This document shows, piece after piece, positions 33,921 to 34,417 of a stretch of DNA of 64,000 nucleotides. Numbering within the stretch: position 1 is the stretch's first letter; the number at the start of each line of letters is the position of its first letter. Source of the stretch: Bixzunavirus cane17. Its lineage: Duplodnaviria; Heunggongvirae; Uroviricota; Caudoviricetes. A model generated the notes under the pieces. That model was not told where the DNA came from and did not search any database. It saw nothing but the letters and a program-made list of their open reading frames with translations. The stretch lies in the IMG/VR virus record IMGVR_UViG_2974759174_000001. One strand, given 5' to 3'. A program made the translations under genes and the position numbers.

Positions 33921-33957
33921 GCGAAGGTAGCTCAGCTGGTAGAGCGTATGATGCCAA
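33921..33957 (+). pseudogene. 5' half of a tRNA-Gly(GCC) cut off at the anticodon loop
   Basis: GCGAAGG-TAGCTCAGCTGGTAGAGC-GTATGA-TGCCAA followed directly by the HNH start. No 3' half nearby. Confidence 0.75.
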
Positions 33958-33958
33958 T

Positions 33959-34387
33959 GTGGACTATAAAGCCGAGTGGCGTCTCAGGACCAGAGAGTGG
34001 GCTGTTGCTGAACTTGGCGGTGTTTGTGTTCGATGCGGATCTGATCAAGACCTACAGTTCGACCACATCGACTCTCAAACCAAAGCGTTTGAGATCAGTG
34101 TGGCTATTCGAGACGGGTACGGTCGGAAACGTTTACTCGCAGAACTGACCAAGTGCCAACTTCTGTGTTGGCCTCACCATCGAGAGAAATCTCGACTGAA
34201 CGGCGAACACGCTGGAGGCAGGAACAAAATTCTGGAGCCGCAGCATGGCACTGCAGTAATGTATGCGCAAAGGTGTCGGTGTGAAGAGTGTCGGTCCTGG
34301 AAGAAAAGATATCGAGCTGGTCTTGTAGACTCGCTTGGACGTGCGGTTATAGCTCAGCCTGGCCAGAGCATCACGTTGCCAACGTGA
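33959..34387 (+). CDS. HNH endonuclease inside the tRNA array
   Basis: CVRCG...LQFDHID...CQLLCWPHHREK. Lower GC. 3' end overlaps tRNA-Gly. Confidence 0.9.
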   Translation: MDYKAEWRLRTREWAVAELGGVCVRCGSDQDLQFDHIDSQTKAFEISVAIRDGYGRKRLLAELTKCQLLCWPHHREKSRLNGEHAGGRNKILEPQHGTAVMYAQRCRCEECRSWKKRYRAGLVDSLGRAVIAQPGQSITLPT

Positions 34388-34417
34388 ACGTCGCGGGTTC
34401 AAATCCCGCTAGCCGCT
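34343..34417 (+). tRNA. tRNA-Gly(GCC)
   Basis: GCGGTTA/TAGCCGC, loop TTGCCAA. Confidence 0.95.

What the first reader, a model, noticed from the sequence alone, without database searches (positions are those of the whole stretch)
33921..34417. HNH gene inserted at a tRNA-Gly anticodon loop, with a replacement tRNA-Gly overlapping its 3' end
Seen: a tRNA-Gly(GCC) 5' half (acceptor strand, intact D arm, ...TGCCAA) stops at 33957. The HNH GTG start follows at 33959 with no SD. A complete but different tRNA-Gly(GCC) starts at 34343 inside the last 15 HNH codons. Inference: a mobile HNH cassette cut the resident tRNA gene at the anticodon and brought its own cleavage-resistant allele. More speculative: because mycobacteria translate leaderless mRNAs well, cleavage or processing at this vestigial loop could release a near-leaderless HNH mRNA, linking nuclease expression to tRNA processing.
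Basis: partly seen in the sequence, partly recalled or inferred. Interest (0 to 1): 0.7.

Follow-up and report, generated by a model that had tools for sequence, protein, structure and literature searches.

The report
HNH cassette overwrites phage tRNA-Gly gene
A small selfish nuclease gene that carries its own glycine tRNA gene has overwritten the original glycine tRNA gene of this mycobacteriophage; about nine in ten sequenced relatives still have the intact original, which makes this a culturable test system for gene-drive-like turnover of phage tRNA genes.

Summary
The window is a Cluster C1 mycobacteriophage (Bixzunavirus). Bases 33921-33946 match positions 1-26 of the resident tRNA-Gly(GCC). 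About 178 of some 200 related records carry that gene intact (GCGAAGG...CTTCGC) and have no ORF there. Nineteen records (15 phages) carry the same 512-bp insert as the window: a rewritten anticodon-arm vestige, a 142-aa HNH gene (GTG at 33959, GC 52% against 64.5% for the window), and a different, complete tRNA-Gly(GCC) whose first 45 nt hold the last HNH codons.

The insert differs at only 2 sites among seven carriers but sits on two diverged flank haplotypes, with marker switches 40-130 nt away. That fits homing with co-conversion. A paralog (68% identical) has the same layout at tRNA-Thr(GGT). Eight of 11 subfamily members sit directly before a tRNA-Gly(GCC).

Two HNH-less phages, Alice and Rabinovish, carry short patches copied from the cassette. 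The patches overlap at tRNA positions 27-31, the likely cleavage zone.

The rewritten stem forms TATGAT ending 7 nt before the GTG. A TANNNT hexamer at that spacing occurs in 8 of 11 cassettes. A leaderless mRNA is therefore plausible, but through a promoter rather than tRNA processing.

Cleavage and mobility are untested. This scan has noted the same design on other DNA.

The parts
33921..33946 (+). 5' remnant of the resident tRNA-Gly(GCC): acceptor 5' strand, D arm and G26
   Evidence: Identical to positions 1-26 of the intact allele in Bxz1, Mangeria, Issimir, Bigswole and an IMG/VR contig. The T at 33940 occurs in Bigswole and the IMG/VR contig; the other six carriers and Bxz1 have C. Rfam finds no tRNA here at E<=1.
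33947..33963 (+). Rewritten anticodon-arm vestige: TATGA (replacing CCACCT), loop TGCCAA, T, GTGGA. It contains the -10-like hexamer TATGAT (33947-33952), which ends 7 nt before the GTG start.
   Evidence: Alignment to empty alleles. The same vestige lies upstream of 59-66% identical HNH genes in metagenomic contigs L029, L031 and L032. A TANNNT hexamer ends 7-9 nt before the start codon in 8 of 11 cassettes; background frequency is 0.004 per position.
33959..34387 (+). HNH endonuclease gene, 142 aa, GTG start, no SD, stop TGA at 34385-34387 inside the next tRNA
   Evidence: phrog_4234 E 1.1e-34. Invariant CxxC...DH...CxxxC..H..K and HG...CxCxxC across 19 homologs. PF01844 is found in 5 of those 19. 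The fold model has pLDDT 87.5, and its best structural matches are HNH nucleases, though with weak scores. GC is 52% and GC3 47%, against 64.5% for the window and GC3 86% in the neighbouring gene. There are no indels among seven carriers.
34343..34418 (+). Replacement tRNA-Gly(GCC), complete. It differs from the resident gene in the acceptor, D loop, anticodon stem and T arm, with compensating changes.
   Evidence: ARAGORN. Rfam gives 66.1 bits against 57.7 for the resident allele. It is 100% identical in all 19 carrier records, and no other sequenced phage exceeds 86%.
34419..34431 (+). Cassette-specific spacer before tRNA-Asp; the right end of the insert
   Evidence: Absent from empty alleles, where only CTC separates tRNA-Gly from tRNA-Asp.
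34432..34504 (+). tRNA-Asp(GTC), the right flank and a co-conversion marker
   Evidence: Carriers have two anticodon-stem haplotypes at six sites within 34456-34471. The window, ET08 and Sauce have the Bxz1 type. Gizmo, Yucca, Stubby and Pinkcreek have the Alice type. Gizmo and Yucca return to the Bxz1 type by 34560.
33716..33910 (+). Left flank: a promoter-like site (TGGACA-18-GATAAT, 33716-33745) whose -10 ends 7 nt before the ATG of a conserved 52-aa ORF (33752-33910)
   Evidence: and annotation in relatives. It shows the same leaderless geometry in the neighbouring gene.

Best explanation
This is a free-standing homing-endonuclease cassette that carries a spare copy of the gene it destroys. 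The cassette is 512 bp (33921-34432, of which the first 26 bp are resident sequence). It has three parts: a vestigial tRNA-Gly anticodon arm, a 142-aa HNH nuclease gene, and a complete tRNA-Gly(GCC).

Proposed mechanism, all inferred. In a mixed infection the nuclease cuts or nicks the resident tRNA-Gly(GCC) gene of a cassette-free relative, at or near the 5' strand of the anticodon stem (tRNA positions 27-31). The break is repaired from the cassette-bearing genome. The left crossover falls in the conserved D-arm sequence and the right crossover falls just past the tRNA. The recipient therefore keeps positions 1-26 of its own gene and gains the vestige, the HNH gene and the new tRNA. The carrier is protected because its vestige has a rewritten stem and its new tRNA gene has a different D loop and anticodon stem.

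The HNH gene is probably expressed as a leaderless mRNA from a -10 element (TATGAT) built into the vestigial stem. Its reading frame ends inside the new tRNA.

What is shown: the anatomy, the empty allele, the foreign composition, the spread across flank haplotypes, the paralogous case, and the family-wide linkage to tRNA-Gly(GCC). What is inferred: cleavage, the cut site, immunity, promoter use, and whether the element is still active.
For: Empty site. 203 related records match; 19 hold the insert and the rest are 434 bp shorter. They carry an intact tRNA-Gly with the same first 26 bases and a matching 3' half. The resident 3' half is absent from the window, so a cassette-free allele cannot arise from a carrier by deletion.

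Foreign origin. HNH GC is 52% and GC3 47%, against 64.5% and 86%. No donor tRNA was found among sequenced phages.

Mobility. The cassette differs at 2 sites in 512 bp among seven carriers. Its flanks fall into two haplotypes that differ at 11-15 of 1240 sites on the left and 37-48 of 1150 on the right. Each haplotype also exists without the cassette: Gizmo(+) against Bxz1(-) shows 0 of 1240 differences, and Stubby(+) against Alice shows 0 of 1150. Carriers belong to three ICTV species, two of which (Bxz1, alice) also hold the non-carriers Bxz1 and Alice. Marker switches lie 40-130 nt from the cassette and differ between carriers.

Recurrence. A 68% identical HNH in Mangeria, Catera, Rizal and about seven other phages has the same layout at tRNA-Thr(GGT): a 5' half, the HNH gene, and a different complete tRNA-Thr inside the end of the ORF. 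Of 11 subfamily loci, 8 have tRNA-Gly(GCC) directly after or overlapping the HNH gene.

Footprints. Alice has a resident gene with a patch over tRNA positions 16-31 that is identical to the new tRNA. Rabinovish has a resident gene with positions 27-39 identical to the vestige. Each allele is unique to one phage and scores lower as a tRNA: 47.0 and 33.1 bits against 57.7.

Nuclease family.

Promoter: together with the TANNNT -10 motif and the leaderless transcripts of M. smegmatis reported in PMC6448022.
Against: No cleavage, cross or RNA data exist; no RNA run holding this stretch was listed.

The window's own protein has no Pfam hit, and the structural matches to HNH nucleases are weak (Z at most 4.9).

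The GTG start without an SD could mean poor expression. The cassette is so uniform that an intact ORF says nothing about selection, so the nuclease could be inactive.

The patchy distribution could come from ordinary recombination among co-infecting Cluster C1 phages without any targeted break.

The 11 cassettes used for the promoter count are homologs, not independent samples.

Rabinovish shows that the rewritten arm can exist without the HNH gene.
Confidence: 0.78

Rival explanations
1. A relic cassette. It invaded by homing in the past, but the nuclease is now inactive or not expressed, and the insert is only passed around by ordinary homologous recombination among Cluster C1 phages.
For: The start is GTG with no SD. 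Compared with L032, a 2-nt insertion puts the neighbouring ATG (33957) out of frame. The window's protein has no Pfam hit. A second HNH in the same tRNA array is visibly decaying: it is intact in Bxz1 and Yucca, 5'-deleted in the window, and almost gone in Gizmo. That is the usual fate of such genes.
Against: The ORF is intact and all family-invariant residues are present. The N-terminus matches homologs exactly. The conserved -10 geometry argues for expression. Marker switches cluster within 40-130 nt of the cassette. The Alice and Rabinovish patches are centred on one small zone.
Confidence: 0.2
2. The cassette spreads because its tRNA is useful, for example a tRNA-Gly variant that escapes a host anticodon nuclease or decodes better. 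The HNH gene would be a passenger or helper.
For: The new tRNA scores higher than the resident one (66.1 against 57.7 bits). tRNA-Gly(GCC) is linked to the HNH gene in 8 of 11 loci. T4/T6 SegB spreads tRNA genes and has been linked to escape from a tRNA-cleaving defence (abstracts of PMC2330249 and PMC13096335).
Against: Only about 1 in 10 relatives carry it. Rabinovish and Alice form plaques with a damaged tRNA-Gly(GCC), so the gene is dispensable in the laboratory. The partner tRNA of the paralog (Thr) falls below Rfam's threshold. This benefit would not exclude homing.
Confidence: 0.12
3. The arrangement is ancestral in Cluster C1 and most relatives lost it (vertical inheritance plus loss).
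For: Loss of homing-endonuclease genes is common, and a neighbouring HNH gene shows deletions.
Against: Carriers do not contain the resident 3' half, so no deletion can recreate the intact resident gene. The composition is foreign. The cassette is near-identical on diverged flanks.
Confidence: 0.03
4. One reading: processing at the vestigial loop releases a near-leaderless HNH mRNA, which couples nuclease expression to tRNA maturation.
For: In three relatives (L028, L033, L034) and in PegLeg, a complete tRNA ends 0-3 nt before the HNH start codon and there is no SD. tRNA 3' maturation could therefore expose the start codon in those phages.
Against: In the window the upstream element lacks the acceptor 3' strand and the T arm, and Rfam finds no tRNA-like match. 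No known tRNA-processing enzyme should recognise it (general knowledge of RNase P and RNase Z substrates). A TANNNT hexamer at promoter distance explains the geometry better.
Confidence: 0.06
5. An intron-containing or split tRNA gene whose halves are joined at the RNA level.
For: The position in the anticodon arm resembles known group I intron sites in bacterial tRNA genes (general knowledge).
Against: There is no 3' half complementary to GCGAAGG in the window. The downstream tRNA has its own acceptor stem, GCGGTTA/TAGCCGC. No intron family matches at E<=1 in 32000-34700.
Confidence: 0.01

Closest known systems
Phage T4 SegB, a free-standing homing endonuclease in the T4 tRNA gene cluster (PMC2330249; see also PMC13096335)
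   Same: It is a nuclease gene sitting among phage tRNA genes. It recognises a tRNA gene sequence, is absent from close relatives, and spreads together with neighbouring tRNA genes in mixed infections while the recipient's markers are lost.
   Different: SegB belongs to the GIY-YIG family, not HNH. It recognises the T-psi-C stem-loop. It does not leave a half tRNA gene or sit fused to a same-anticodon replacement. Its activity and homing are demonstrated; here they are inferred.
HNH endonuclease genes in mycobacteriophage and mycobacterial tRNA arrays (PMC5966550 and PMC6409571, both citing Pope et al. 2014 on Cluster M phages, which I could not read)
   Same: Same host group and same kind of gene. 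PegLeg gp96 is a 38% identical homolog lying between tRNA-Gln and tRNA-Tyr. Those papers already say that such HNH genes are implicated in tRNA repertoire diversity.
   Different: The passages I read describe adjacency only. They do not describe a disrupted resident tRNA gene, a replacement with the same anticodon, or an ORF that ends inside the tRNA. PMC5966550 does not name an HNH among the four genes shared by about 96% of Cluster C arrays.
Fungal mitochondrial mobile ORFs that carry a foreign copy of the gene end they displace (Allomyces atp6; Glomus atp6, atp9, cox2, nad3; PMC3630166)
   Same: An endonuclease gene travels with a diverged replacement for the part of the host gene it displaces, and leaves the native part behind as an unused remnant.
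   Different: Those are protein-coding genes in organelles, with LAGLIDADG or GIY-YIG enzymes. The replacement is a 3' end fused in frame, and the remnant is the native 3' end. Here a whole tRNA gene is supplied and the remnant is the 5' half.
Group I introns with homing endonucleases in bacterial tRNA anticodon loops (general knowledge)
   Same: Same target region of a tRNA gene, and the same logic of hiding the damage done by the insertion.
   Different: There is no ribozyme and no matching 3' exon. The damage is covered by a spare gene rather than by splicing.
HNH-plus-tRNA cassettes noted earlier by this scan in other genomes (e1-5063650, e1-5293533, e1-5420174, e1-5358743, e1-5440739, e1-5647581, e1-4039005)
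   Same: Same design: a broken tRNA gene, an HNH gene, and a complete tRNA with the same anticodon that often overlaps the HNH stop codon.
   Different: Those concern other tRNAs (His, Arg, Leu, Met/Ile) and other hosts, mostly uncultured. This case lies in about 200 cultured, sequenced, near-isogenic phages with carriers, empty sites and two patchwork alleles. I did not check whether the nucleases are related.

Membership tests
HNH (beta-beta-alpha-metal) endonuclease | Significant match to a family profile | tested here: met
   phrog_4234 'HNH endonuclease' E 1.1e-34, plus eight further HNH PHROGs at E<0.01. The window's protein itself has no Pfam hit, but 5 of 19 aligned homologs match PF01844, best E 1e-6.
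HNH (beta-beta-alpha-metal) endonuclease | Catalytic D-H, distal His and flanking Cys pairs | tested here: met
   C23, C26, D35, H36, C66 and C70 are invariant and H74 nearly invariant in 19 homologs of 36-66% identity. The canonical Asn position is not conserved as Asn.
HNH (beta-beta-alpha-metal) endonuclease | Fold | tested here: inconclusive
   The model has pLDDT 87.5. Most of the best matches are HNH nucleases (Cap5, GVE2 HNH, Gme HNH, T5 SciA, McrA, Cas9 and IscB HNH), but the best Foldseek E is 0.19 and Z is at most 4.9.
HNH (beta-beta-alpha-metal) endonuclease | Nuclease activity | not testable with these tools
   Needs the purified protein.
Free-standing homing endonuclease (intronless homing, SegB-like) | Presence or absence at the same site among close relatives, with an intact target in the empty allele | tested here: met
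   19 of 203 records carry it. The others have the intact tRNA-Gly at the same place.
Free-standing homing endonuclease (intronless homing, SegB-like) | Distribution at odds with the flanking sequence, with co-conversion tracts of variable length | tested here: met
   A near-identical cassette sits on two flank haplotypes. Switch points lie 40-130 nt away and differ between carriers. The sample is seven carriers and five non-carriers, not all 200.
Free-standing homing endonuclease (intronless homing, SegB-like) | The carrier genome lacks a cleavable target | tested here: inconclusive
   The vestige and the new tRNA both differ from the resident gene at positions 27-31 and beyond. The recognition site itself is unknown.
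Free-standing homing endonuclease (intronless homing, SegB-like) | Site-specific cleavage of the empty allele, and inheritance above 50% in crosses | not testable with these tools
   Needs cleavage assays and mixed infections.
Group I intron in a tRNA gene | A ribozyme core and a matching 3' exon | tested here: not met
   No intron family matches at E<=1 in 32000-34700. The resident 3' half is absent from the window even with 3 mismatches allowed.
Mobile ORF with a replacement gene part (fungal mitochondrial type) | An endonuclease gene, a diverged replacement copy, and a native remnant left in place | tested here: met
   compared with the description in PMC3630166. This is the same logic, not common descent.

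The most novel reading that the evidence does not exclude
These HNH-plus-tRNA cassettes could be a self-contained gene drive for phage tRNA genes, with three linked adaptations. (1) The vestige of the destroyed anticodon arm has been turned into a -10 promoter, so the nuclease is made from a leaderless mRNA. (2) The reading frame ends inside the cargo tRNA, so RNase P cleavage at the tRNA 5' end would leave a stop-less nuclease mRNA. Expression would then be limited by tRNA maturation and by ribosome rescue; the phage encodes its own tmRNA 0.9 kb downstream. (3) The cut site lies at tRNA positions 27-31, and Alice and Rabinovish are natural escape alleles made by short-patch repair at the cost of a damaged tRNA. 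If so, an arms race over tRNA genes is going on among co-infecting mycobacteriophages.
Probability: 0.3. Interest if true: 0.72.

Novelty: new variant of a known kind. Interest (0 to 1): 0.55.

Why it matters
Homing endonucleases in phage tRNA clusters are known (T4 SegB), and HNH genes next to mycobacteriophage tRNAs have been noted. In the papers I searched, I did not find the design seen here, in which the nuclease overwrites a tRNA gene and supplies a spare with the same anticodon. It offers one mechanism for the turnover and mosaicism of phage tRNA repertoires.

This locus is unusually testable. The phages are cultured on a harmless laboratory host. About 200 genomes are sequenced. Near-isogenic pairs with and without the cassette exist: Gizmo and Bxz1, and Stubby with Alice and Rabinovish. 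Two natural patchwork alleles predict where the enzyme cuts.

There is also a practical point. In all six carrier records whose annotation I read (Sauce, ET08, Stubby, Pinkcreek, Gizmo, Yucca) the HNH gene is unannotated or a wrong-frame ORF is called instead. Its low GC3 probably misleads gene callers.

Tried and rejected
RNA evidence. The look-up of sequencing runs listed no RNA holder for 33600-34700, so expression, 5' ends and tRNA processing could not be examined.

Own genome. The window's assembly is not held, so the absence of the resident 3' half was tested only within the 64-kb window.

Solved structures. Sequence search found no match at E<=1. Foldseek and VIA-align gave only weak matches, most of them HNH nucleases.

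Two-hexamer promoter scan. It does not call TATGAT because there is no -35 element. It does call the neighbouring site at 33716-33745.

Window-wide test for TANNNT at leaderless distance before ORFs of 100 aa or more. There is no general enrichment: 2 hits at offset 7, one of them the HNH gene. The promoter argument therefore rests on conservation among cassettes.

IMG/VR pattern scan. It returned one contig only, an empty allele.

Donor of the new tRNA. None was found among sequenced phages. Bacterial genomes were not scanned.

Pope et al. 2014 (Cluster M phages) and Hatfull et al. 2010 are not held, so what they say about HNH genes and tRNAs is known to me only second-hand.

Origin from the Mangeria cassette. 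I considered that the Gly cassette derives from the Mangeria Thr cassette, because both share TATGA(A)TGCCA near the left end. The composition differs (GC3 47% against 71%) and metagenomic relatives are equally close, so they are more likely separate arrivals. This is unresolved.

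Full report
**What the window is.** The region lies in the large tRNA array (27 tRNA genes and one tmRNA) of a Cluster C1 mycobacteriophage, genus Bixzunavirus. A 1.6-kb stretch around the finding is 98.7-99.7% identical to Sauce, Cali, ET08, Gizmo and others.

**Checking the observation.**
- Bases 33921-33946 spell the acceptor 5' strand, D arm and G26 of a tRNA-Gly.
- The ORF 33959-34387 starts with GTG. This is the only in-frame start after the stop at 33908, and no Shine-Dalgarno sequence precedes it.
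- ARAGORN and Rfam call a complete tRNA-Gly(GCC) at 34343-34418 (66.1 bits). The last 45 nt of the ORF lie inside that tRNA. The stop TGA (34385-34387) is in the 3' strand of its anticodon stem.
- The ORF is an HNH endonuclease: phrog_4234 E 1.1e-34 over residues 2-128. C23, C26, D35, H36, C66 and C70 are invariant and H74 nearly so, and H96, G97, C106, C108 and C111 are invariant, across 19 homologs. PF01844 is found in 5 of those homologs.
- The window's own protein has no Pfam hit. A confident fold model (pLDDT 87.5) finds mostly HNH nucleases as best matches, but weakly: E at least 0.19 and Z at most 4.9.
- The 14 residues encoded by the tRNA align with nothing conserved.

**The empty site.**
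- Of 203 related phage records, 19 (15 phages) hold the whole stretch. The others are 434 bp shorter.
- Bxz1, Mangeria, Issimir, Bigswole and an IMG/VR contig have, at exactly this place, one intact tRNA-Gly(GCC). It begins GCGAAGG, ends with the complementary CTTCGC, and scores 57.7 bits.
- Against that allele, the window is identical through position 26. It then has TATGA in place of CCACCT, and then keeps TGCCAA, one changed base, and GTGGA. After that come the HNH gene, the new tRNA and a 13-nt spacer, and homology resumes at tRNA-Asp.
- The resident 3' half is nowhere in the window. Carriers therefore cannot revert to the empty state by deletion.

**Foreign origin and movement.**
- The HNH gene has 52% GC and 47% GC3. 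The window has 64.5% GC and the neighbouring gene has 86% GC3.
- Among seven carriers the 512-bp cassette varies at two sites and has no indels.
- The flanks fall into two haplotypes. Type A includes the window, Gizmo, Bxz1 and Mangeria. Type B includes Stubby, Pinkcreek, Alice and Rabinovish. They differ at 11-15 of 1240 sites on the left and 37-48 of 1150 on the right. Both types occur with and without the cassette. Gizmo(+) equals Bxz1(-) over 1240 nt, and Stubby(+) equals Alice over 1150 nt.
- ET08 and Gizmo are classified in the same species as Bxz1. Stubby and Pinkcreek are classified in the same species as Alice.
- Marker switches lie close to the cassette and differ between carriers. 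The window, ET08 and Sauce have the A-type tRNA-Asp stem. Gizmo and Yucca have the B-type stem at 34456-34471 but return to type A by 34560. ET08 and Yucca have B-type markers on the left.
- This is the pattern expected from repeated break-induced conversion with variable tracts. Ordinary recombination is not excluded.

**A second case and the wider family.**
- Mangeria, Catera, Rizal, Dandelion and about six more C1 phages carry a 68% identical HNH gene 1.3 kb upstream, at tRNA-Thr(GGT). The layout is the same. The first 26 bases of the resident tRNA-Thr are followed by a rewritten stem, the HNH gene, and a different complete tRNA-Thr(GGT) lying wholly inside the end of the ORF. Homology to empty alleles resumes at the last bases of the tRNA.
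- Nine metagenomic homologs (47-66% identical) were placed on their contigs. With the window and Mangeria this gives 11 loci.
- Eight of the 11 have a tRNA-Gly(GCC) directly after the HNH gene or overlapping it by 9-45 nt. One has tRNA-Thr(GGT). One has tRNA-Gly(GCC) directly upstream. One has no downstream tRNA.
- More distant homologs also lie against tRNA genes: PegLeg, Crossroads, Streptomyces phage Navo, an E. coli phage, a Stenotrophomonas phage, a T5-like Salmonella phage and Sinorhizobium phage phiM12. In three of them the ORF again runs 21-39 nt into the next tRNA.
- Linkage to tRNA genes is therefore a family trait. Linkage to tRNA-Gly(GCC) is a subfamily trait.

**The vestige belongs to the cassette.** L029, L031 and L032 carry the same string upstream of their HNH genes, although their surroundings are unrelated: the 3' side of a D arm, then TA...T, then GCCA, then the start codon. 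L027 keeps a recognisable 5' half of a tRNA. The window's remnant is therefore composite. Positions 1-26 come from the resident gene, and the rest arrived with the cassette. This places the left crossover in the D-arm sequence that most tRNA-Gly genes share.

**Two patchwork alleles.**
- Alice has no HNH gene. Its tRNA-Gly is the resident gene, except that positions 16-31 are identical to the new tRNA, including a 2-nt insertion in the D loop. This leaves a G-G mismatch in the anticodon stem (47.0 bits).
- Rabinovish also has no HNH gene. It carries the resident gene with positions 27-39 identical to the vestige, followed by the resident 3' half. The anticodon stem is destroyed (33.1 bits).
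- Each allele occurs in one phage only. Both phages share the type B flanks of the carriers Stubby and Pinkcreek.
- Two short patches, copied from two different parts of the cassette and overlapping at positions 27-31, are what imperfect repair of a break at that spot would leave. I infer that the nuclease acts there and that these alleles resist it. Neither point is shown.

**Expression.**
- The rewritten stem creates TATGAT (33947-33952), which ends exactly 7 nt before the G of the GTG start.
- A TANNNT hexamer ends 7 nt before the start in four cassettes, 8 nt before it in three, and 9 nt before it in one. That is 8 of 11 loci, with the inner bases and the spacers varying. Background frequency is 0.004 per position.
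- In M. smegmatis, TANNNT is the preferred -10 motif and leaderless transcripts are prominent (PMC6448022).
- The neighbouring 52-aa gene has the same geometry: GATAAT ends 7 nt before its ATG.
- In the three cassettes without the hexamer, a complete tRNA ends 0-3 nt before the start codon.
- In the window the vestige lacks the acceptor 3' strand and the T arm, and nothing tRNA-like is detected. Processing is therefore unlikely and a promoter is the better reading. No RNA data were available.
- Because the frame ends inside the tRNA, RNase P cleavage would leave the HNH mRNA without a stop codon. Whether this limits expression is speculation.

**Comparison with what is known.**
- T4 SegB is the closest studied system. 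It is a homing endonuclease within a phage tRNA cluster that recognises a tRNA gene and spreads with its neighbours (PMC2330249). It belongs to another nuclease family and leaves no half gene or replacement.
- Two surveys note HNH genes in mycobacterial and mycobacteriophage tRNA arrays. Citing Pope et al. 2014, they say that these genes may generate tRNA repertoire diversity (PMC5966550, PMC6409571). I could not read the cited paper.
- The logic of carrying a replacement for what is destroyed is described for fungal mitochondrial mobile ORFs (PMC3630166).
- I found no paper describing it for tRNA genes.
- This scan has noted the same design in many other genomes. Those notes were not checked here.

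**Verdict.** The main inference is supported by comparative evidence, and the mechanism remains to be tested. I rate it a new variant of a known kind. Interest is moderate, raised by how easily it can be tested.

Noticed in passing
window 32360-32520: A 5'-deleted remnant (the last ~50 codons) of a second HNH gene, the Bxz1 gp167 type, lies between tRNA-Thr(TGT) and tRNA-Thr(GGT). The gene is intact in Bxz1 and Yucca. In Gizmo only ~50 nt remain. This looks like a homing-endonuclease gene at different stages of decay.
   Followed up: yes
L005 1436-1968 (Mangeria; also Catera, Rizal, Dandelion, RoMag, Mikro and others): A paralogous cassette sits at tRNA-Thr(GGT): a 5' half of the resident tRNA-Thr, a 163-aa HNH gene, and a different tRNA-Thr(GGT) lying wholly inside the ORF end. 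ARAGORN calls that tRNA, but it falls below Rfam's threshold, and Catera annotates it 'tRNA-OTHER'.
   Followed up: yes
L021 1823-1895 (Rabinovish) and L002 922-997 (Alice): These are HNH-less patchwork tRNA-Gly alleles with broken anticodon stems (33.1 and 47.0 Rfam bits). Both are annotated as ordinary tRNA-Gly. Rabinovish probably has no working tRNA-Gly(GCC).
   Followed up: yes
window 33948-34148 and 33957-34148, + strand, other frame: Public records either leave the HNH gene unannotated (Sauce, Stubby, Yucca) or call a 63-67 aa wrong-frame 'hypothetical protein' over its first half (ET08 gp162, Gizmo gp179, Pinkcreek gp158). phrog_34097 matches that wrong-frame ORF (E 8e-48). GC3 is 64% in the wrong frame and 47% in the HNH frame, which probably misleads gene callers.
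   Followed up: partly
window 33716-33752: A promoter-like site (TGGACA-18-GATAAT, with TG before the -10) ends 7 nt before the ATG of the conserved 52-aa ORF 33752-33910. This is a likely leaderless gene next to the cassette.
   Followed up: partly
L016 370-864 (Bacillus phage CM1): A homolog of this HNH lies between two ORFs annotated 'tRNA splicing ligase' and 'RNA-splicing ligase RtcB'. It may be an HNH insertion that splits an RtcB gene.
   Followed up: no
L029 951-1060 and L035 897-990: In two metagenomic cassettes the gene caller's HNH start lies upstream of a whole tRNA-Gly (CCC or TCC). The real start is probably about 100 nt further in, just after the TANNNT hexamer.
   Followed up: partly
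L019 (Stubby) 1-570 compared with L020, L022 and L023: The tRNA content just upstream of the D-Ala-D-Ala carboxypeptidase-like gene differs greatly between close relatives. Stubby has tRNA-Ala directly before it. Pinkcreek has Phe and Thr. Gizmo has three Thr. Alice has Phe and Val. The array turns over rapidly.
   Followed up: no
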